Assembly (NCBI GenBank): GCA_964203225.1
Contig: CAXNMK010000002.1
Span: 545,664 to 609,663, forward strand
Reading direction: 5' to 3'
Length of the DNA: 64,000 nt
Source of the DNA: Kofleriaceae bacterium
GTDB lineage: Bacteria > Myxococcota_A > Polyangia > Haliangiales > Haliangiaceae
Of this stretch, positions 32,967 to 64,000 are shown one piece after another. How positions within the stretch are numbered: the first letter of the stretch is position 1; each line of letters starts with the position of its first letter. The notes below the pieces were generated by a model that saw only the letters and a list, made by a program, of their open reading frames with translations, was not told where the DNA came from and ran no database searches. Position numbers and translations under genes: made by a program.

Positions 32967-35092
<2,126 letters not shown>

Positions 35093-35096
<4 letters not shown>

Positions 35097-35620
35097 GGGG
35101 TCGCCACGCCGCCATCGCCGCCATCGGTGCCGTCCGCGAGCACGGGCGAGGCGAGCACCCGCGACAGGCTGAGATCGAGCCGGCTGTCCGCGTCTCGGAC
35201 GATGCTGTCGAGGGCGTCGTCGGCGAGCTCGAACGCGGCGATCGCGCGGGCATCGCCGGTGGCGCAGCACCGCGCCAGCAGCAGGTCATCGAGGCGCAGC
35301 CGCGCGAGGGCCGCATCGGCGTCCTTGTGGGCGGCGAGCCCGCTCGCCAGCGCCTCGATCAGCGCGCCATCGGTGACCGCGAAGGCCTCCGGCCAGCGTG
35401 CGCGCGCCGCGGCCAGCGCCTCGCCACGCCGGACATCCAGGCCAGACAGGGCAAGCGCGGCCTGCGACTCGGCAGGGGCGCGCTCCACGAGGTGGGTCCA
35501 CCACGACGACACGGGGACCGAGCATGCCATGGCGCGTCGCTGCCCGGCCGGCCCAAACGCGCGGTCGTGAAGGGCGATCGAGCGCGCGTCGATGCCCGGC
35601 CGCCTGCGTGGCTCGGGCAC
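35093..35620 (-). CDS. hypothetical protein, possibly co-translated partner of the downstream STK
   Basis: Ala/Leu-rich, not obviously an ECF sigma factor. Its stop overlaps the kinase GTG in a GTGA arrangement. Weak. Confidence 0.3.
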
Positions 35621-35626
35621 GGTCGC

Positions 35627-36006
35627 GGGTGGCAGGGTGGCAGGGTGGCAGGGTGGCAGGGTGGCAGGGTGGCGTGGGCGTGGGCGTGGGCGTGGGCGTG
35701 GCCGCGGCGCCGCTGGTGCCGTGATGGTGTGGCGAGCGACGACGAGCAGCCCGCGGCGCCGCTGGTGCCGTGATGGTGCGGCGAGCGACGACGAGCGGCC
35801 TGCGCCCCTGCGGTCCCGTCACCGCCGGGCGGTCAGCCGGCCTCGACCGGCCTGCGCCCCTGCGGTCCCGTCACCGCCGGGCGGTCAGCCGGCCTCGACC
35901 GGCCTGCGCCCCTGCGGTCCCATCACCGCCGGGCGGTCAGCCGGCCTCGACCGGCCTGCACCCCTGCGGTCCCGTCACCGCCGGGCGGTCAGCCGGGCTC
36001 GACCGG
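35627..36006. repeat. compound tandem-repeat region: (GGGTGGCA)x5, (GGGCGT)x5, ~49-nt unit x2, then 52-nt unit x4 (35799..36006), each carrying a GC hairpin (ACCGCCGGGCGGT)
   Basis: Directly visible. The gene-proximal 52-nt unit contains the last 18 nt and stop codon of the rhodanese gene. The other three units repeat that segment (PVEAG-stop versus PVEPG-stop) plus the hairpin. Confidence 0.85.
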
Positions 36007-36315
36007 GAGCTTCGCGCGCTCCCAGCCGGCGATGCCGTCGGACATCACGTAGACCCGCGCGTAGCCGAGGCTCTGGGCGCGCACGGCGCCCGTGTGGCAG
36101 CTGTGTCAACCAGGGCCTGCGCAGTAGAACACCAGCGTCGCGTCGCGGTCTGGCGGCAGGTCGCTGACCGGGTAGCTGTACGGATGAAGGTTCTTCGCGC
36201 CGGGGACCTGGCTGCGGCGCCAGCGGCCCGCGCCGTTGTTGTCGAACACGTGAAAGCCCGGCTCGCCGAGGCGGGCAGCGACCTCCTGGACGGTGAGCTC
36301 GGGCAGCTCCGCCAC
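35989..36315 (-). pseudogene. single-domain rhodanese (sulfurtransferase) with in-frame TGA in the active-site loop
   Basis: GTG start with GAGG 6 nt upstream, directly after the DUF882 gene stop. Translation VAELPELTVQEVAARLGEPGFHVFD...LVFYCAGPG-[TGA 36106-36108]-HSCHTGAVRAQSLGYARVYVMSDGIAGWERAKLPVEPG. The C-terminal part aligns with the rhodanese end (VY..DGG..AW...LPVE). The TGA sits where the conserved loop Arg (C-x-x-G-x-R) is expected; CGA to TGA is a single transition. Confidence 0.6.
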
Positions 36316-36325
36316 GGGGACCTCG

Positions 36326-37093
36326 CTACGAGACCGGCTTGCGGGCCGGCTGCGTGCGGCGACCCGGGCGCTTCGCCTTGCTCTTCTTGCCGCTGTTCGG
36401 GCCCGAGCGGTCCGTCCACCGGTAGCTGGGCTCGCCGGGGGCGCGGAAGTCGACGTGGATGAAGCCGCTGGTCGGGTAGATGCCGATGCCCATGTGGCCC
36501 TGATCCAGGGACTCCGCGTAGGCGTACATGTCCCGGATCGAGACGTCCTTGATCCGGATGTCCATCGCGGAGGCGTGGAAGTGGCGGCTCGACGAGCGCT
36601 CGGCGAACCGGAACCCCGAGACCAGGTCGATCCGCTTGCCCTCGAAGTGGTCGTAGATCCGGGACAGCTGCTCGTATAGCTCGGTGCGCACCGCGCGGAC
36701 CTCGCCGGTCTGGCGGCAGCGGAACAGATCGTCGAGCTTGGCGAGCGCGGCCTCGTCGAACGTGCCGTCAGCCTTGTAGATGTTGACGTGGGCCTCGTCG
36801 GCGAGGTTCTCGGCGCGCAGCCAGACGTCACCCGACGGGCGCTCGAGGGGCTCGGTGCGCAGGCTCGACCGGGCGGCGTTGTGCCCGGTGAACATCGCGA
36901 CCCGCTTGCACTTCTTCTTGCCGCGGACCTTCGAGCACTCGCGCGTGGCGCCCTTGCCGGACCCCTTCCGCTTGCTCGAGCTGTTGGCCGACTTCGCGGC
37001 TGCCATCGCCTTCGGCTTCGCATCCACCGTGGCGACTCCCGGGAGGAGCGTCGCCAGGAGGGCTACGGCGATCAGGAGGGCCAGTCGTCGCAT
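36326..37093 (-). CDS. DUF882 / peptidase M15A (YcbK-like) family protein, secreted
   Basis: Signal peptide MRRLALLIAVALLATLLPGVATVDA. C-terminal HMGIGIYPTSGFIHVD and SGFRFAERSSSRHFHASAMD are typical of YcbK/M15 D-Ala-D-Ala carboxypeptidase-like proteins. Confidence 0.8.
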   Translation of the reverse strand: MRRLALLIAVALLATLLPGVATVDAKPKAMAAAKSANSSSKRKGSGKGATRECSKVRGKKKCKRVAMFTGHNAARSSLRTEPLERPSGDVWLRAENLADEAHVNIYKADGTFDEAALAKLDDLFRCRQTGEVRAVRTELYEQLSRIYDHFEGKRIDLVSGFRFAERSSSRHFHASAMDIRIKDVSIRDMYAYAESLDQGHMGIGIYPTSGFIHVDFRAPGEPSYRWTDRSGPNSGKKSKAKRPGRRTQPARKPVS

Positions 37094-41447: not shown

Positions 41448-42173
41448 ATGAAGGTCCTCGCGCTCCTCCTGTGCTGTGGTGCGCTCGCCGCGTGCGAGAG
41501 CGACGACGGCGACTACCCGATCCAGCCGGGCGGGAACACCCCGCCGGGCACGTCCTCCCGGCCCGATGGCGGCGCGGGTGGGGACGCCGCAGGGGCGACG
41601 ATCAGCGGGCGCGTGTGCAAGCTCACCGACCTGCGCGCCCACAGCAGCGCGGCGTGCGCGACCACGGGGGCGGCCGGCATCACGGTCACGCTCGGGGCCT
41701 CGACCGCGGAGACCGACGCGACCGGCGCGTTCACGATCCCCACACCCACCGGGACCAACCTGGTCTGGCGTGCATCCGGCGTGGACCTGGTGGGAGCGGT
41801 GATGCCACTCGGGGGGACCACCGAGATCCCGATCATCGACACCGCGACCTACGAGGAGCTGCTGCTGTCGGCCGGCGTGCTGCTGTCGTCCGCGCAGGGC
41901 TCGATCATCGGCTACGTGCGGCGCGCGGGGCAGCCACTGGCGGGCGCCGTCGCCGACGTCACCCCGGTGCCGCCGTATCCCGCGGCGTACGATGGCATCA
42001 CGGCCTCGGTGTGGCGCGCCGGCGCGACGGGCGCCCTCGGGACGGTGTGGGTGCCCGCGCTCGACGCCGGCGCGGTGACGGTGACCGTGACACCCGCAGT
42101 CAGCAGCGTGGTCACGCGGACGGTGCCCGTCGAGGCGGTCGCGATCACGTTCGTGCCGTTCGAGATCCCGTGA
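41448..42173 (+). CDS. lipoprotein, carboxypeptidase-regulatory-like beta-sandwich domains, hypothetical
   Basis: MKVLALLLCCGALAAC (good lipobox LAAC). Repeated ISGRV/GYVRRAG...GA...V motifs suggest CarboxypepD_reg-like folds. Confidence 0.55.
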   Translation: MKVLALLLCCGALAACESDDGDYPIQPGGNTPPGTSSRPDGGAGGDAAGATISGRVCKLTDLRAHSSAACATTGAAGITVTLGASTAETDATGAFTIPTPTGTNLVWRASGVDLVGAVMPLGGTTEIPIIDTATYEELLLSAGVLLSSAQGSIIGYVRRAGQPLAGAVADVTPVPPYPAAYDGITASVWRAGATGALGTVWVPALDAGAVTVTVTPAVSSVVTRTVPVEAVAITFVPFEIP

Positions 42174-42270
42174 GCGCGGCTGGTCCTCTGACCGAGGCGG
42201 AGTGACCACATCGGAGGCGCGATCCATCGCCGATCGCGTCGTTGCGGGGCCGCTAGTGCCGCTAGTGCCG

Positions 42271-43612
42271 CTAGTGCCGCGCTGCGGCCAGGTGGGACAG
42301 GGCGGCGCGCCAGCCCGCGGCCTTGGTCTCGGTCTCCGCGAGCTCGCTCGCCGGCTCCGAGTCCGCGACGATGCCGCCGCCGACGTGGACGCGGAGCTCG
42401 CCCCCGGCGAGGACGCCGATCCGGATCGCGATCGCGAGGTCGAACGCGCCGGCCGCGCCGAAGTAGCCGAGCGCGCCGCAGTACGGGCCCCGGCGCGTCG
42501 GCTCGAGCTCGTCGATCAGCTCCATCGCGCGGACCTTCGGCGCGCCCGTGATCGAACCGCCAGGGAAGGTCGCGCGCAGCAGCTCGGCGTAGCCGACCTC
42601 GGGGCGCGGCTCCGCGCTGACCCGCGACACCTGGTGGTAGAGCGCCGGCAGCTCGACGACGTAGCCGAGAGCGTCGACCCGCACCGAGCCCGCCGTCGCG
42701 ATCCGGCCGAGGTCGTTGCGCTCGAGGTCGACGATCATCAGGTGCTCGGCGGCGTCCTTCGCCGAGGCTGCGCAGCTCGGCGGCGCCGGTGGCGGAGCGC
42801 GGCCGGGTCCCCTTGATCGGGCGGGTCTCGAGTCGCGCGCCGGTGGCCGCGAGGAACCGCTCGGGGGAGCCGGAGATCACGGTCATGCCATCGGCCTCGA
42901 GCAGTGCGCCGTAGGGCGCCGGGGCGACCGCATCGAGCGCGGCATAGATCGCGAGCGGGTCGCCGGGCGCGACGACCGGCGCGACCAGCCGGCGCGCGAG
43001 GTTGACCTGGTACACGTCCCCGGCCGCGAGGTAGTCGCGGATGCGCTCGACCCGCGCCATGTGGTGATCGCCGTGGTCGTCCGCGACGAGCGGCCCCAGG
43101 CTCGGCGGCAGCGTCGGCCGGGCGGGGCGCGCGAGGTGGGCCGCGAGGCGCGCGCGCGCAGCGGGGTCCGGCCCGACGATCTCGAGCGGCCCGGCGCCGT
43201 GCCACCGCGCCATCGCGCCGTACGCCGCCAGCCACAGGTCGGGGGTATCGCCCCCGCGCGTGGGTCCGCCCGGCAGCCTCTCGACCACGCGCGCGAGGTC
43301 GTAGCCGAGCACGCCGACCACGCGCGGGACCGGCGGTGCGTCGTCGGACCTGGTGGTGCGCTCGCAGCCGTGGGCGGCGAGGAACGCCTGCGCCGCGTCG
43401 AGCGGGTCGCCGTCGAACCGGCGCACGACACCGCCCGCGGCGTCGAGCTCGACCAGCGCGTGCCCGCGCGCGATCAGGGTGGCGGTGGGCTCGGCGCTGG
43501 CGAACGACCACGTGCCGAGGCCGTCGTCATCGCGCCCCGAGTGGAGCAGCACCCGCCCACGGAGGCCGCCCAGGCGCGCCGCCGCGTCGAGCGGTAACAC
43601 GGGCTCCGGCAT
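42271..43612 (-). pseudogene. pabB: aminodeoxychorismate/anthranilate synthase component I (PabB/TrpE family), reading frame interrupted by a 1-nt shift near 42760
   Basis: N-terminal part in ORF 41912..43612 up to ...LETRPIKGTRPRSATGAAELRSL. C-terminal part in ORF 42271..42738 (MIVDLERNDLGRI...GGSITGAPK...PYCGALGYF). The conserved AKDAAEHLMIVDL is only restored by removing one G from ctcGGcgaagg on the coding strand (~42760). Confidence 0.6.
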
Positions 43613-57903: not shown

Positions 57904-58380
57904 CGCGGGTGGGTCGTCGCCCCGCAGCTGGCGTCGCGATCACGCTGACGAGCGCGTCGCGAGGGTTCTCGTAGAACACGACGAGCTCGTGGTCGTCGCT
58001 GAGCTCCTTCCGGCCGGAGATCGAGAGGACGAATTACAGGAAAGTGTGCGGCGTCATCGGCCTCGGCGGCAGGTACTCGCGCAGCACGGATGAGGTCGTC
58101 GAGGACGCGCTCCATGGTCGCCAGCGCTGCCGCCTGTTCTCCAGGTTCGTCCCAGGTAAGGGCCCGCGAATGGACATCTCGATCGCCTTCGCGGTCGATC
58201 CATCCCCGGGGGCGTCGTTGCTCCTCGGTCGCGTACCGGCGGGTACGCTCCCTCGTCGCGCCTCGCCCGCGGGGCGGTTCGCCCACGATCATCGATCGAT
58301 TTACCCGTTCGCGGCCCCTCAAGTCGCCGCTGAAGCACAATGGCGCCGCGAGGCATCGGGTCTCGCAGTACGATGGCGCA

Positions 58381-61300
58381 ATGGTACGTGGAGCCCACCT
58401 GGCGGTGATCGGGTTGTTCGTGGCCGGTCTTTTCGGCGCTTGCGTCTCGCCGACGTCGAACCACTGTCCCACGGTGGATTGTCCGGCGAACGAAGTCTGC
58501 GACGGCCACGGTGGCTGCGCGCAGCAAGCGCAGCTCGACGTCTGCAAGGACAAACCGGACGGGACCTCGTGCAGCTACGACCGCACACCGGATGGCTCGT
58601 GCGCCGGGGGGCTATGCCGTCCGGTCGGCTGCGGCAACGACGCCGTCACCGCCAACGAGGTGTGCGACGACGGCAACACCGCCAACGGCGACGGCTGCTC
58701 GGCGGACTGCAAGTCCAACGAGACCTGCGGCAACGGTGTGGTCGACCCGGCGCGCGGCGAGCAGTGCGACGACGCCAATGCGGTCGACGGCGACATGTGC
58801 CAGCACGACTGCAAGCTCCCGCGGTGCGGCGACAGCGTGACGGATGCGAACCTCGCGGAGACCTGCGACGAGGGTGCTGCGAACTCGACGGCGCCGGATG
58901 CGGCGTGCCGGCCGAACTGCCAGCGCGTGCGGTGTGGTGATGGGGTGGTCGACGTGCTCGCGCTCGAGGCGTGCGACGACGGCAACAATCAGAGCGCCGA
59001 CGGTTGCTCGGGCGACTGCAAGTCGACCGAGACCTGCGGCAACACCATCGTCGACGCGATCGCGGGCGAGGTGTGCGACGACGGCAACATGGCATCGGGT
59101 GATGGCTGCGCGGGTGACTGCCGGTCGGTCGAGGTGTGCGGCAACGGTGTCATCGACATCCTGCGCGGCGAGGTGTGCGACGACGCCAACACGGTCTCCG
59201 GCGACGGCTGCTCGTCGGATTGCAAGTCACTCGAGGTGTGCGGCAACACCATCGTCGACACGATCGACGAGCAATGCGACCTCGGCGTGGCCAATTCGAA
59301 CGCACCCGACTCGGCGTGCCGGATCGACTGCAAGCTGCCGATCTGCGGCGATGCGATCATCGACGCATCGAACCGGGGCGAACAATGCGACGACGGGTTC
59401 ATGAACGCGGACGTCGCCGATGCGTGCCGCACGAGCTGCCAGCTGCCGCGCTGCGGCGACGCGATCAGGGACATGCTCGAGATCTGCGACGACGGCGATG
59501 CCACCTCGGGCGACGGCTGCGCGTCGGACTGTCAGTCGCTCGAGACCTGCGGTAACGCCATCATCGACACCGCTGCCGGCGAGCAATGCGACGCGGGGGG
59601 GGCGAATTCGAACAGCCCGAACGCGCCGTGCCGGGTCGACTGCAAGCTGCCGAAGTGTGGTGACACCGTGATCGATAGCGCCAACGGCGAGAGCTGCGAT
59701 CTCGGCACGGCGAACTCGAGCGCACCCAACGCGTTGTGCCGGACCAACTGTCAGCCACAGCGCTGCGGCGACGCGATCCGCGACACCGCGTTGGCGGAGG
59801 TCTGCGACGATGGCAACACGACGGCCACCGATGGCTGCGCGTCGGACTGCCGCTCGCTCGAGACCTGTGGCAACAGCATCGTCGACACGAGCACGGGCGA
59901 GCAGTGCGACGCCGGCGCCGGCAACGCGAACACGCCGAACGCGCCGTGCCGCCTGACCTGCACGTCACCGACCTGTGGTGACAACATCATCGACAACACG
60001 CTGCTCGGCGAGGGTTGCGATCTCGGCCTGGCAAACTCGAACGCACCGGGCGCCGCGTGCCGGACGAGCTGCCAGCCGCGACGCTGCGGCGACAGCATCC
60101 TCGACGCCGCGACGGGCGAGTCGTGCGACGACGGCAACACGGTCGCGGGTGATGGCTGTTCGGCGGACTGCGAATCGCTCGAGACGTGTGGCAACGGCGT
60201 GGTCGACCTCGTGAACGACGAGCAGTGCGATGCGGGTGGCGCCAACGCGAACACGCCGAACACGCCGTGCCGCACGACCTGCAAGTCACCGGCGTGCGGC
60301 GACAGCATCGTCGACAATACGTTGCTCGGCGAGGGCTGTGACCTTGGCCTGGCGAACTCGAACGCGCCGAACGCAGCCTGCCGGACGAGCTGCCAGCCGC
60401 AACGCTGTGGCGACAACATCCGTGACACCACGTTGGGTGAGTCGTGCGACGACGGCAACACGGTCGCGGGCGACGGCTGCTCGGCGGACTGCAATTCGCT
60501 CGAGATCTGCGGCAACAGCATCGTCGATGTCGTCGACGGCGAGCAGTGCGACGCGGGCGGCGCGAACTCGAACAGCCCGAACGCGCCGTGCCGGCTGACC
60601 TGCCAGCTGCCGAAGTGTGGCGATGTCATCATCGACACCGCGAATGGCGAGACCTGCGATCTCGGGACCGCCAACTCGAGCGCACCGAACGCGACGTGCC
60701 GGACCAACTGCCAGCCTCGGCGGTGTGGCGACACGATCCTCGACAACGCCACCGGGGAAGTCTGCGACGACGGCAACACGGCGGCGAACGACGGCTGCTC
60801 GTCCAGCTGTGGCTCGCTCGAGACGTGTGGCAATAGCATCGTCGACACGAGCACGGGCGAACAATGCGACGCCGGTGCCAGCAACGCGAACACGCCGAAC
60901 GCCCCGTGCCGGCTGACCTGCGCGTCACCGAGGTGTGGCGACAGCATCGTCGACAACACGCTGCTCGGCGAGGGCTGCGACCTCGGCGGGGCGAACTCGA
61001 ACGCGCCGAACGCGACCTGCCGGACGGGCTGTCAGCCGCGACGGTGCGGCGACAATATCCTCGATACCGCGACGGAGTCGTGCGACGACGGCAACACGAT
61101 CGCGGGCGACGGCTGTTCGGCGAACTGTGCGTCGCTCGAGACCTGCGGCAACGGGATCGTCGACCTCGTCGATGGCGAGCAGTGTGACGCGGGTGCTGCC
61201 AACTCGAACGCTCCGAATGCCCCGTGCCGCCTGACGTGCAAGCTGCCGAAGTGCGGAGACACCGTCGCCGACCCGGCGCTCGGCGAGGCCTGCGACCTTG

Positions 61301-64000
61301 GCGTCGCGAACTCCAACCTGCCCAACGCGACGTGCCGAACGAGCTGCCAGCTACAGCGCTGCGGCGACAACATCTTCGACAATACGCTGGGCGAGATCTG
61401 CGACGACGGCAACGCGGTCGCCGGCGACGGCTGCTCGCCCGACTGCAAGTCGACCGAGGTATGCGGCAACAGCATCGTCGACGTCGTCGATGGCGAACAG
61501 TGCGATGCGGGTGCCGCGAACTCGAACAGCCCGGACGCGCCGTGCCGGCCGACCTGCCAGCTGCCGAGGTGCGGCGATGTCATCGTCGACACCGCCAACG
61601 GCGAGAGCTGCGATCTCGGAGGCGCCAACTCGAGCGCGCCCAACGCGACCTGCCGGACCAACTGTCAGCCGCAACGGTGTGGCGACACGATCCTCGATAA
61701 CACCAAGGGCGAGGTCTGCGACGATGGCAACACGGCGGCGAACGATGGCTGCTCGTCCAGCTGTGGCTCGCTCGAGACGTGCGGCAACAGCATCGTCGAT
61801 ACCAGCAAGGGCGAGCAGTGCGATGCCGGTGCGGCCAACTCGAACAGCCCGAACGCGCCGTGCCGGCCGACCTGCAAGCTGCCGGTCTGCGGCGATGTCA
61901 TTGTCGACACCGCGTTTGGCGAGGCGTGCGACCTCGGCGTGGCGAACTCGAACGCGCCCAATGCGACGTGCCGGACGATCTGCCAGCTACAGCGATGTGG
62001 CGACTTCATCCTCGACAATACGAAGGGCGAGATCTGCGACGACGGCAACACGATCGCGAACGATGGCTGCTCGTCGAACTGTGGCTCGCTCGAGACCTGC
62101 GGCAACGGGATCGTCGACGTCACCAAGGGAGAACAGTGCGACGCCGGTGGGCTCAACTCGAACAACCCGAACGCACCGTGCCGGTTGACGTGCAAGCTGC
62201 CGACCTGCGGTGACGGCGTCGCCGATACCGCGTTCGGTGAGGGTTGCGACCTCGCCACCGCGAACTCGAACGGCCCGAATGCCGTGTGCCGCACGAACTG
62301 TCAGCCGCAGCGCTGCGGAGACCTCGTGCTCGACAATACCAAGGGCGAGGTGTGCGACGACGGCAACGTGACGAGTGGCGACAGCTGCTCGGCGGACTGC
62401 AAGTCGACCGAGTTCTGCGGCAACGCGATCATCGATGTCGTCGATGGTGAACAGTGCGACGACGGCAACGCGAGCAATGCCGACACCTGCCACACCGATT
62501 GCAAGATCCCGCGGTGCGGCGATCTGATCGTCGACACGACCTTCAACGAGCAGTGCGATCTTGGCGTCGCGAACTCGAACGCGCCGAACTCGGCCTGCCG
62601 CACGACCTGCGTCCAGCCGCGGTGCGGCGACGCGATCGTCGATACCGCGACCGAGGTCTGCGACGATGGCAACAGCGCCCTCGGGGATGGCTGTCGACCC
62701 GACTGTCGATCGACCGAGGTGTGCGGCAATGGCATCCTCGATCCGCAGACCGGCGAGGTCTGCGACGACGGCAACACGCGCGGTCACGACGGCTGCAGCG
62801 GGTGCGTGCCGGAGTCCGCGGTGGTCCTCGAAGCGAACGGCGCACCGAGCGCCCGCGACATGATGGGGCTCGCGTACGACGCCGCTCGCCAGCGGGTCGT
62901 GATGTTCGGCGGCTGGACGCCGGCGGGGAATCTGAACGACACCTGGGAGTGGGATGGCGTCAGCTGGATCCAGATGACGCCCAAGCACGCGCCCAAGGGT
63001 CGGCTCGGCGTGGCGATGGCGTACGACGCGGCTCGCCATCGCATCGTGCTGTTCGGTGGGTTCACCACCAACTTCGGCGTCATCCAGTCCGATACCTGGG
63101 AGTACGACGGCGTCGATTGGAAGCAGTTCGCGCCGCCGACGTCGCCACCGGGTCGTGCCGAGGCTGCGGCGGCGTACGACGCCAGTCGCCGCAAGGTGAT
63201 CATGTACGGCGGCTACGATGGCAGCACCACCTCCAGGAGCGATACCTGGGAGTGGACCGGCACCACCTGGAACCAGATCACCGGGAGCAACGCCGGCGCG
63301 CGACGCGGTCACTCGATGGCGTACGACGCCAAGTCCAAGACGATCGTGCTGTTCGGCGGCGGCGATAACCGAACCTGGACGTGGAACGGCACGACGTGGA
63401 CGGATCGCGGGGCTCCTGGTGCCGACGGTCCGATCAACAACGGCACCGATCAGACATCGATGGTGTTCGACGCCGATCAGCAGGTCATCGTGCTGTGGGA
63501 TGGCACCTCGAGCAAGACGTTCCACTGGTCGGGCAGCGCCTGGACCACCGTGGCCGGCACGACTCCGACGACGCCGCGCACGCGAATCACGATGGTGTAC
63601 GACTCGATCCGCAAGCAGGTCGTGATGTTCGGCGGTTGCTCGGGGCTGCTGACGACCACGTGCGCGTCCAGTTTCGGTACGGACTTCGCCGACACCTGGT
63701 TGCGCACCGGCACGACGTGGGCGTTGGCTCCGGTGTTCGTCCAGCCCGCCGCTCGGATCCGCGCGGCGGCCACCTACGATCCGTTGCGCAAGAAGGTCGT
63801 GCTGTTCGGCGGTCAGCTCACCGCCTCTCGACGAGCCTGTGGCGTGACCTGCATGCTGAACGAGACCTGGGAGTGGGATGGTCGCAAGTGGACGCTCACC
63901 ACGCCGACGACGCCACCCTCGGCGCGCGCGGGTCACCTGATGGACTACGACACCAGCGCGCGTGCGATCCGGCTGTTCGGCGGCGACTTCCGCAGCAGCG
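58381..64000 (+). CDS. giant secreted (possibly lipo-)protein: N-terminal signal peptide, ~35 tandem Myxococcus-type cysteine-rich repeats, then Kelch-like beta-propeller blades; partial, continues beyond the window
   Basis: [21 protein letters not shown] signal. Repeats 58600-62790 alternate two ~40-aa unit types: C-G-N-x-I/V-V-D-x(3)-G-E-x-C-D-D-G-N-x(4)-D-G-C-S-x-D-C and C-D-x-G-x-A-N-S-N-x-P-N-A-x-C-R-x-x-C-x-x-P-x-C-G-D, period ~240 nt. From ~62800 six or more blades with DTWEWDG..W / FGG motifs (galactose-oxidase/Kelch type). Confidence 0.8.

What the first reader, a model, noticed from the sequence alone, without database searches (positions are those of the whole stretch)
35989..36315. 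Rhodanese gene with an in-frame TGA at the predicted active-site-loop arginine position
The ORF reads ...LVFYCAGPG-TGA-HSCHTGAVRAQSLGYARVYVMSDGIAGWERAKLPVEPG-stop. The sequence after the TGA stays in the same frame and aligns with the conserved rhodanese C-terminus. The TGA is therefore either a CGA to TGA nonsense mutation of the conserved loop Arg (C-x-x-G-x-R), giving a recent pseudogene, or a sequencing error, or stop-codon read-through/recoding. Selenocysteine seems unlikely because the catalytic Cys (FYC) is retained upstream; even so, a GC hairpin (GGCGC-CGTGC-GCGCC) lies ~18 nt downstream.
Basis: seen in the sequence. Interest (0 to 1): 0.55.

Follow-up and report, generated by a model that had tools for sequence, protein, structure and literature searches.

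The report
Unannotated selenocysteine rhodanese gene in Kofleriaceae
The "stop codon" inside this small sulfur-transfer (rhodanese) gene is almost certainly a selenocysteine codon, kept with its RNA hairpin signal in about 130 related soil-type myxobacterial sequences, so the gene is intact and belongs to a selenoprotein subfamily that public annotation truncates.

Summary
A 108-codon rhodanese gene lies on the minus strand (36315..35989) and has an in-frame TGA at 36108..36106.

It is not a pseudogene or a sequencing error.
- 130 of 132 related loci carry TGA at exactly this codon. They come from about 50 GTDB species (mostly Kofleriaceae/Haliangiales MAGs) plus 80 metagenome contigs.
- The TGA is followed in frame by about 38 conserved residues that evolve like coding sequence.
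- The two exceptions, and all ten full-length protein homologues checked, have Cys there. This is a classic Sec/Cys pair.
- A 6-bp hairpin, GGGCGC-CG[G/U]GC-GCGCCC, starts 14 nt after the UGA (36091..36075). It meets the four published structural criteria for a bacterial SECIS.
- Synonymous sites inside the hairpin are frozen (0.07-0.13 bits, against 0.76-1.72 elsewhere). The Cys forms lack the hairpin.

The active-site loop reads C65-x4-U70-H-S-C73. Alignments place the canonical loop Arg one residue after the Sec, not at it.

Five rhodanese selenoprotein forms are catalogued (UxxS, UxxG, CxU, UxxG, UxxxxU). None is C-x4-U, and no NCBIfam selenoprotein model passes its cut-off.

Databases hold only 68-89-aa truncations of the TGA forms.

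I could not test for Sec machinery in the source genome. The biochemical role is inferred.

The parts
35989..36315 (-). Complete read-through ORF of 108 codons encoding a single-domain rhodanese selenoprotein (GTG start, Sec70, terminal TGA)
   Evidence: Searches give the translation. One search gives Pfam PF00581 at E=1.6e-11. Searches show tblastn matches spanning residues 1-108 in 132 loci.
36321..36324 (-). Shine-Dalgarno-like GAGG, 5 nt upstream of the GTG start
   Evidence: Read directly from the sequence. Orthologues begin at the same place.
36121..36123 (-). [quoted passage not shown]
   Evidence: Invariant in all homologues. In the AF2 model of the Cys paralogue, the strand is followed by the loop.
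36106..36108 (-). In-frame TGA, codon 70, read as selenocysteine
   Evidence: TGA in 130 of 132 loci, TGT or TGC in the other two. The aligned column is an invariant Cys in full-length homologues. The terminal stops of the same genes are mixed TGA/TAG/TAA.
36097..36099 (-). Codon for Cys73, which forms a U-x-x-C motif with Sec70
   Evidence: Cys in 45 of 48 Sec forms. It is also present in many Cys forms as C-x4-C-x2-C.
36075..36091 (-). SECIS-like hairpin: 5' arm GGGCGC (36091..36086), loop CGUGC (36085..36081), 3' arm GCGCCC (36080..36075). It encodes residues about 75-81 (T-G-A-V-R-A-Q).
   Evidence: Folds at -12.7 kcal/mol. It is the RNAalifold consensus, and 98% of cells are paired. Synonymous sites are frozen. 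It meets the published bSECIS criteria. It is absent from the Cys forms.
35989..35991 (-). True terminator (TGA) of the gene
   Evidence: Orthologues terminate 35-45 residues after the Sec, at 38 residues in 102 of 128, using TGA 58, TAG 54 and TAA 16 times.
36326..37093 (-). Upstream co-directional gene for a DUF882/Peptidase_M15_2 protein. Its stop lies 10 nt before the rhodanese start, so it is a likely operon partner.
   Evidence: Pfam PF05951 at E=4.8e-16. The same neighbour sits upstream in 41 of the 53 loci compared: the 52 genome loci plus the window segment.

Best explanation
This is an intact selenoprotein gene.

Recoding (strongly supported by comparative evidence, though not shown directly). 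The UGA at codon 70 is decoded as selenocysteine by the standard bacterial route. A hairpin in the coding sequence starts 14 nt downstream (GGGCGC-CG[G/U]GC-GCGCCC, with the loop 20 nt from the UGA). It would recruit SelB with Sec-tRNA(Sec) to the ribosome while UGA is in the A site.

The product. It is a 108-residue cytoplasmic single-domain rhodanese. Its active-site loop is C65-A-G-P-G-U70-H71, followed by S-C73-H at the start of the next helix.

Chemistry (inferred). Cys65 is the usual rhodanese nucleophile that carries a persulfide or attacks the substrate. Sec70 sits six residues along a seven-residue, Cx5R-length loop and acts as a highly reactive partner. It would attack or resolve the Cys65 adduct through a selenenylsulfide. 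Cys73, part of the U-x-x-C motif, would complete a redox relay to a cellular reductant.

Evolution. The Sec form arose from a C-x4-C rhodanese lineage and is fixed in a clade of Kofleriaceae/Haliangiales.
For: Shown by computation.
1. TGA sits at the same codon in 130 of 132 loci, from about 50 GTDB species and 80 metagenome contigs.
2. The two exceptions carry TGT or TGC, and every full-length homologue has an invariant Cys in that column.
3. The 21 codons after the hairpin have mean entropies of 0.29, 0.35 and 1.01 bits at codon positions 1, 2 and 3. This matches the upstream coding pattern of 0.15, 0.08 and 0.87. The read-through ORF ends 38 residues later in 102 of 128 loci.
4. The internal stop is always TGA, whereas the terminal stops of the same genes are TGA 58, TAG 54 and TAA 16.
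5. The hairpin meets the four structural criteria of the published bSECIS model: a 5-nt loop, a 6-bp stem, G[G/U] at loop positions 2-3, 20 nt between the UGA and the loop, and -12.7 kcal/mol.
6. Four-fold-degenerate third positions inside the hairpin carry 0.07-0.13 bits, against 0.76-1.72 outside it. At the closing Ala codon only C-to-T is tolerated, which keeps a G-U pair. Pairs are kept in 92-100% of 118 distinct sequences, with GC-to-AU double changes in three.
7. The Cys forms lack the hairpin.
8. Sec forms are monophyletic in a crude NJ tree.
9. Haliangium ochraceum, which NCBI places in Kofleriaceae, is listed as a Sec-utilising organism.
10. Rhodanese selenoproteins with a Sec adjacent to the catalytic site are already catalogued, as CxU and UxxxxU.
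11. The AF2 model of the Cys paralogue P0122 has pLDDT 95.5. It shows strand 59-63, loop C64-R70 and helix 71-81, which puts the Sec-equivalent residue at the end of a seven-residue loop.
Against: - No selA, selB, selD or tRNA-Sec lies in the 64-kb window or in the roughly 400 kb of related loci held. The rest of the genome could not be searched.
- No Rfam family matches the hairpin.
- The hairpin is no more stable than shuffled GC-rich sequence in its 42-76-nt context.
- Covariation is sparse because the element is nearly invariant. Only one of six pairs shows a double change in the genome set, and 179 of 500 shuffles reach that count.
- The chemical role of Sec70 and Cys73 rests on position and analogy only. 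Cys73 is missing in a few Sec forms (L018, L048, L050).
- No selenium incorporation data exist.
Confidence: 0.9

Rival explanations
1. Recent pseudogene: a CGA-to-TGA nonsense mutation of a loop arginine truncates the protein at residue 69.
For: A typical single-domain rhodanese has Cx4R, and simple counting puts the TGA at C+5. Gene callers stop there.
Against: The same TGA is present in 130 of 132 loci that diverge to about 60% identity. The downstream 38 codons are under purifying selection. No homologue has Arg in this column, and all have Cys or TGA. HMMER places the canonical Arg one residue later.
Confidence: 0.01
2. Sequencing or assembly error at 36106-36108.
For: The assembly has at least one apparent frameshift elsewhere, in a PabB-like gene near 42740-42800.
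Against: Independent assemblies from many projects and technologies show the identical codon.
Confidence: 0.01
3. Genuine termination: a 69-residue half-rhodanese is made, and the downstream sequence is conserved for another reason, such as a separate small ORF or an RNA element.
For: Databases hold hundreds of 68-89-aa products. The hairpin could in principle be a regulatory or terminator structure.
Against: The downstream segment shows a codon-position substitution pattern in the same frame. It has no conserved start codon and supplies the last helix-strand-helix of the rhodanese fold, which is present in full-length Cys homologues and in the AF2 model. The internal stop is exclusively TGA, while the true stops are mixed.
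Confidence: 0.03
4. Read-through without selenocysteine: near-cognate or suppressor decoding of UGA (Trp, Cys or Arg), helped by the weak UGA-C context.
For: C follows the TGA in 127 of 128 loci. Sec machinery was not verified for this genome.
Against: The following C belongs to a conserved His codon. The hairpin, frozen at synonymous sites and fitting the bSECIS spacing and loop rules, is not explained by simple leakiness. The Sec/Cys pairing is the hallmark of Sec sites.
Confidence: 0.05

Closest known systems
[quoted passage not shown]
   Same: Both have a rhodanese active-site region with a Sec five residues after the catalytic position. The local match covers window residues 53-106 and profile positions 104-157 at E=7.5e-10. 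The spacing U-x4-U matches C-x4-U here.
   Different: TsoB is a roughly 570-residue fusion protein with two Sec residues and sits in a three-selenoprotein operon. This protein has 108 residues, one Sec and keeps Cys at the catalytic position. The score is 37.5 against a cut-off of 805. I did not see the residue-level register against the TsoB profile.
Rhodanese-related (seleno)protein, LYCAU type (NCBIfam NF041203; 'rhodanese form 3', motif CxU)
   Same: Both are single-domain rhodaneses of similar length that keep the catalytic Cys and carry a nearby Sec. The match is full-length, residues 2-107 against profile 18-125 of 126.
   Different: The Sec is at C+2 there and at C+5 here. The score is 42.8 against a cut-off of 115.
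Rhodanese-like selenoproteins forms 1, 2 and 4 (UxxS, UxxG; Geobacter, Sargasso Sea)
   Same: They share the Pfam PF00581 domain and bacterial SECIS-dependent decoding.
   Different: As I read the catalogued motifs and from my own knowledge (not checked on sequences here), in those forms the Sec replaces the catalytic Cys itself. Here the catalytic Cys is invariant and the Sec is an additional loop residue.
C-x4-C rhodaneses of Kofleriaceae and other bacteria (P0121/P0122 cytoplasmic; P0123, P0124, P0127, P0131 and P0147 with lipoprotein-like N-termini; L052 Planctomycetota)
   Same: They have the same fold and the same LVFYC-x4-[C/U] loop. They are 37-64% identical to the window protein, and many share the third Cys as C-x4-C-x2-C.
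   Different: They have Cys in place of Sec and no hairpin in the mRNA. Several carry signal or lipoprotein leaders that the Sec forms lack. None is characterised.
Cdc25/Acr2-type Cx5R rhodanese-fold phosphatases and arsenate reductases
   Same: The loop has seven residues (C64..R70 in the model of P0122). There is a one-residue insertion relative to Cx4R sulfurtransferases in HMMER alignments. The Cx4R/T versus Cx5R distinction is taken from PMC10135228. 1t3k and 2hhg appear among weak PDB hits.
   Different: The Arg is replaced by His in the Sec forms and is variable in distant Cys forms. There is no His before the Cys (YC, not HC). The nearest solved structure is the uncharacterised BH2092, 3nhv, at TM 0.88.

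Membership tests
Bacterial selenoprotein gene (Sec-UGA plus bSECIS) | In-frame UGA conserved at the same codon in orthologues | tested here: met
   130 of 132 loci carry it.
Bacterial selenoprotein gene (Sec-UGA plus bSECIS) | Cys-containing homologues align Cys with the UGA (Sec/Cys pair) | tested here: met
   L044 has TGT and L052 has TGC. Cys70 is an invariant column in A3.
Bacterial selenoprotein gene (Sec-UGA plus bSECIS) | Sequence downstream of the UGA is translated in the same frame | tested here: met
   Entropy at codon positions 1, 2 and 3 is 0.29, 0.35 and 1.01 bits over codons +11..+31. The C-terminus has a conserved length, and it forms part of the rhodanese fold.
Bacterial selenoprotein gene (Sec-UGA plus bSECIS) | Hairpin meeting the bSECIS model: 3-9 nt loop, 4-16 bp stem, G in the first two loop positions, 16-37 nt from the UGA to the loop, and MFE <= -7.5 kcal/mol | tested here: met
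   The criteria come from PMC13188914. Here the loop is 5 nt (CG[G/U]GC), the stem is 6 bp, the spacing is 20 nt and the energy is -12.7 kcal/mol. Synonymous sites are frozen.
Bacterial selenoprotein gene (Sec-UGA plus bSECIS) | selA, selB, selC (tRNA-Sec) and selD present in the same genome | not testable with these tools
   None lies in the 64-kb window or in the held loci. The only indirect support is that Haliangium ochraceum (Kofleriaceae in NCBI taxonomy) is listed as Sec-utilising.
Bacterial selenoprotein gene (Sec-UGA plus bSECIS) | Selenium physically incorporated at the UGA position | not testable with these tools
   This needs 75Se labelling or mass spectrometry.
Rhodanese-like domain (Pfam PF00581) | Profile match above the gathering score, with a catalytic Cys at the strand-loop junction | tested here: met
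   45 bits against 22.2, covering residues 8-100. The model of the Cys paralogue reaches TM 0.88 and rmsd 1.5 A to 3nhv.
NF041203 rhodanese_LYCAU (form 3, CxU) | Score at or above the curated cut-off, with Sec two residues after the Cys | tested here: not met
   42.8 bits against 115. The Sec is at C+5.
NF045694 TsoB (form 5, UxxxxU) | Rhodanese/DsbD-like fusion of about 570 aa with two Sec residues and a score at or above the cut-off | tested here: not met
   37.5 bits against 805, and only a local match. This protein has 108 aa and one Sec.
Rhodanese selenoprotein forms 1, 2 and 4 (UxxS, UxxG) | Sec-related motif UxxS or UxxG (Sec replacing the catalytic Cys, in my reading) | tested here: not met
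   The motif here is U-H-S-C. The catalytic Cys65 is invariant and the Sec is a separate residue.
Cx5R (Cdc25/Acr2-type) rhodanese-fold enzymes | Seven-residue loop C-x5-R | tested here: inconclusive
   The loop length fits. Arg is present in the five Cys forms P0121, P0122, P0140, P0157 and P0181. It is His in the Sec forms and variable elsewhere.

The most novel reading that the evidence does not exclude
This would be a sixth, uncatalogued subfamily of rhodanese selenoproteins (C-x4-U-x2-C). The Sec does not replace the catalytic cysteine. It occupies the penultimate position of a seven-residue, Cdc25/Acr2-length loop. That would turn a sulfur-transfer domain into a Cys-Sec-Cys redox relay. 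The subfamily is fixed across a large clade of Kofleriaceae, and current annotation systematically truncates it to about 69 residues.
Probability: 0.55. Interest if true: 0.55.

Novelty: new variant of a known kind. Interest (0 to 1): 0.45.

Why it matters
Public databases hold well over two hundred protein clusters of this family only as 68-89-residue fragments named "hypothetical" or "rhodanese-like". A selenoprotein model would repair all of them. It would also add a selenoprotein to Kofleriaceae selenoproteomes, where the only cultured member listed in the source I checked, Haliangium ochraceum, has three known selenoproteins.

The Sec here sits beside a retained catalytic Cys, and natural C-x4-C counterparts exist. 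That gives a clean natural experiment on what selenium adds to rhodanese chemistry. It also adds a second example, after TsoB's UxxxxU, of the C+5 loop position being chosen for Sec.

The overlap of the SECIS with the coding sequence explains why the peptide G-A-G-R-A is conserved in Sec forms but not in Cys forms.

Tried and rejected
- Thermodynamic tests did not discriminate. Folding 42-76 nt around the site is no better than dinucleotide shuffles in this 73% GC genome (z = +1.04 and +0.38). Only the isolated 21-nt hairpin stands out (z = -2.46).
- The Rfam scan of 35900-36400 returned only chance hits.
- Formal covariation on the 50-sequence alignment is weak because the stem is nearly invariant. 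The informative signal was suppression of change at synonymous sites.
- RNAalifold proposes a small 5' hairpin that includes the UGA (columns 1-16). I did not pursue it, since the Gly and Cys-His codons can explain its pairs.
- The look-up of encoding contigs found no record for P0001, so I did not obtain the source record.
- The Haft and Tolstoy 2025 paper that describes TsoB is not held, so I could not check the register of TsoB's second Sec against U70.
- align_proteins refuses a translation that contains a stop. I therefore modelled the Cys paralogue P0122 instead of the window protein.
- Pfam scans of 27 window ORFs found no sel genes. ARAGORN found no tRNA-Sec in the window or in the 132 loci. 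Neither result is informative about the whole genome.
- Literature searches for a Myxococcota rhodanese selenoprotein found nothing relevant.

Full report
**The observation**

The gene lies on the minus strand. Translation of 36330..35986 gives RSEVPVAELPELTVQEVAARLGEPGFHVFDNNGAGRWRRSQVPGAKNLHPYSYPVSDLPPDRDATLVFYCAGPG*HSCHTGAVRAQSLGYARVYVMSDGIAGWERAKLPVEPG*.
- The start is GTG at 36315..36313, with GAGG five nucleotides upstream.
- The internal TGA is codon 70, at 36108..36106. The terminal TGA is at 35991..35989.
- With the TGA read as Cys, the 108-residue product matches Pfam Rhodanese over residues 8-100 at E=1.6e-11, 45 bits against a cut-off of 22.2.

**Is the TGA an accident?**

A protein search returned 253 hits. 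The best 120 are 70-81% identical (one is 100%), 67-85 residues long, and cover only about 62-64% of the query. Twenty-eight of them, when aligned, all end at exactly ...LVFYC[S/A/T/L]GPG. So gene callers stop at the same codon everywhere.

I then fetched DNA.
- A scan of one genome per GTDB species gave 52 loci, mostly Kofleriaceae, Haliangiales or "Myxococcales" MAGs.
- A metagenome scan gave 80 more.
- One locus, L051, is cut by a contig end. Of the 132 sequences scored (the other 131 loci plus the window itself), 130 have TGA at this codon, one has TGT (L044, Kofleriaceae) and one has TGC (L052, Planctomycetota).
- After the TGA the frame stays open for 35-45 codons, 38 in 102 of 128 loci. 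It encodes a conserved C-terminus, HSCHAGAGRAxELGYxNVYVMPDGIAGWEKAKQPVExG.
- Over codons +11..+31 the mean entropy at codon positions 1, 2 and 3 is 0.29, 0.35 and 1.01 bits. This is the signature of a translated sequence, like the 0.15, 0.08 and 0.87 found upstream.
- The true terminators of these same genes are TGA 58, TAG 54 and TAA 16, whereas the internal stop is always TGA.

These results exclude a pseudogene, a sequencing error and ordinary termination.

**The Sec/Cys pair**

A second protein search, using the L044 Cys form, found full-length homologues: P0121 and P0122 from Kofleriaceae, and P0123, P0124, P0127, P0131, P0140, P0147, P0157 and P0181. In their alignment with the window protein, both Cys65 and the residue aligned with the TGA (Cys70) are invariant. 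No homologue has Arg there. In a crude neighbour-joining tree the 116 distinct Sec forms are monophyletic, and the L044/P0122 Cys pair lies just outside them.

**The SECIS element**

Folded alone it gives -12.7 kcal/mol.

The current bacterial SECIS model (PMC13188914, read) has four structural requirements, and the hairpin meets all of them:
- a 3-9-nt apical loop;
- a 4-16-bp stem;
- a G in the first two loop positions, usually as G[G/U];
- 16-37 nt from the UGA to the loop, and MFE <= -7.5 kcal/mol.

The comparative evidence agrees.
- RNAalifold recovers the hairpin as the consensus structure of 50 Sec forms, and 98% of cells are paired.
- Covariation is limited because the element is almost invariant.
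- That invariance is itself the signal. In 114 distinct indel-free sequences, the four-fold-degenerate third positions of codons +6..+9 (GGC GCC GGG CGC) carry 0.07-0.13 bits. Other conserved Gly, Ala, Pro and Val codons in the same gene carry 0.76-1.72 bits.
- At the Ala codon that closes the stem only C-to-T occurs, which keeps a G-U pair.
- The rare variants keep pairing. Examples are GAGCGC...GCGCTC, AGGTGC...GCGCCT, and a bulged alternative in L043.
- Observed loops are CGGGC (111), CGTGC (6) and AGGTC (1). The second loop base is always G, and the third is G or U (T in the DNA), fitting the G[G/U] rule.
- The two Cys-form loci have unrelated sequence here and do not form the hairpin.
- Because the element lies inside the coding sequence, it also explains why the peptide G-A-G-R-A is fixed in Sec forms but variable in Cys forms.

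**What could not be shown**

The 64-kb window has no tRNA gene. Pfam scans of 27 large ORFs found no SelA, SelB or SelD. ARAGORN found no tRNA-Sec in any held locus. The rest of the genome is out of reach.

There is only indirect support. Haliangium ochraceum DSM 14365, which NCBI places in Kofleriaceae, is listed among Sec-utilising organisms with three known selenoproteins. Myxococcus and Plesiocystis are listed as well (Peng et al. 2016, Table S2).

**The protein**

An AlphaFold2 model of the Cys paralogue P0122 is confident (pLDDT 95.5). It has strand 59-63, loop C64-R70 and helix 71-81. The nearest solved structure is the uncharacterised rhodanese BH2092, 3nhv, at TM 0.88 and rmsd 1.5 A. 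Next come other single-domain rhodaneses: 6mxv, YgaP, GlpE and TSTD1.

HMMER alignments to YgaP and 6mxv place a one-residue insertion in the loop. They align the canonical loop Arg with the residue after the Sec position. The loop is therefore of the seven-residue Cx5R length rather than Cx4R/T, a distinction taken from PMC10135228.
- In the five Cys forms P0121, P0122, P0140, P0157 and P0181 the loop reads C-x4-C-R.
- In the Sec forms it reads C-[A/S]-G-P-G-U-H.

So the TGA does not replace the loop Arg.

A third Cys (C73) gives U-x-x-C at the helix N-terminus in 45 of 48 Sec forms.

From these positions I infer a mechanism. Cys65 is the rhodanese nucleophile. Sec70 is an adjacent resolving or attacking selenol. 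Cys73 is a relay partner. This is analogy, not evidence, and I give it roughly 0.4.

Sec forms have no signal peptide, whereas several distant Cys forms have lipoprotein-like leaders.

**Genomic context**

The upstream co-directional gene, 36326..37093, is a DUF882/Peptidase_M15_2 protein. It ends 10 nt before the rhodanese start. The same neighbour is found in 41 of the 53 loci compared, that is the 52 genome loci plus the window segment. A dCMP-deaminase-like gene lies further upstream in nine of them, judged from the sequence by eye. The downstream neighbours vary. The context does not point to a pathway.

**Comparison with what is known**

Rhodanese selenoproteins have been known since 2005. 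The 2026 catalogue of 119 prokaryotic selenoprotein families and subfamilies lists five rhodanese forms: UxxS, UxxG, CxU (NF041203, "LYCAU"), UxxG, and UxxxxU (TsoB, NF045694). It counts a different Sec position as a different subfamily.

None of the five is C-x4-U. Against NCBIfam release 20 the window protein scores only 42.8 against 115 for NF041203, and 37.5 against 805 for TsoB. The local TsoB match, and TsoB's U-x4-U spacing, suggest that U70 corresponds to TsoB's second Sec. I could not see that alignment.

Records sourced from NCBI for the TGA forms are 68-85-residue "hypothetical" or "rhodanese-like domain-containing" proteins.

I therefore rate this as a new variant of a known kind. 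It is a real and widespread selenoprotein subfamily that appears to be uncatalogued and is systematically mis-annotated. It is not a new principle.

**Verdict**

- Observation: confirmed.
- Confidence that codon 70 is a Sec codon: about 0.9.
- Interest: 0.45.

Noticed in passing
window 35616-36006: Four back-to-back tandem arrays fill the region just 3' of the rhodanese gene: an 8-bp unit x7.4 (35616-35673), a 6-bp unit x5.2 (35671-35701), a 49-bp unit x2.1 (35702-35804) and a 52-bp unit x4.1 (35792-36006). The last array overlaps the final 18 nt of the gene, including its stop. About 20 of 109 related loci also have tandem repeats just 3' of the orthologous gene, built from unrelated units. 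I have no explanation.
   Followed up: partly
window 41912-43612 (minus strand), break near 42740-42800: A chorismate-binding (PabB/TrpE-like) gene appears split by a frameshift. ORF 41912..43612 begins with a plausible N-terminal half and then reads as junk. Another frame (42271..42738, or 42274-42876) carries Chorismate_bind profile positions 107-257 of 257. It is either a pseudogene or an assembly indel.
   Followed up: partly
window 58003-63999 (+): An open reading frame of more than 1999 codons runs off the window end. It has many DUF4215 cysteine-rich repeats and Kelch/beta-propeller domains.
   Followed up: no
window 32967-35270 (-): A Ser/Thr protein kinase-like ORF has low-complexity tandem peptide repeats (RADSG about 8 times; APSST and PATAA runs). 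It lies downstream of the repeat-filled intergenic region.
   Followed up: no
L002 (JBLMXA010000276.1): One TGA-form locus, 74% identical to the window protein, is labelled as an Acidobacteriota MAG, while all other close hits are Myxococcota. This could be a binning error or a horizontal transfer.
   Followed up: no
A2 columns 1-16 (window 36111-36096, minus strand): RNAalifold also proposes a small hairpin that encloses the UGA itself, pairing GG[U/C] with [G]CC. The flanking Gly and Cys-His codons may explain its pairs.
   Followed up: no
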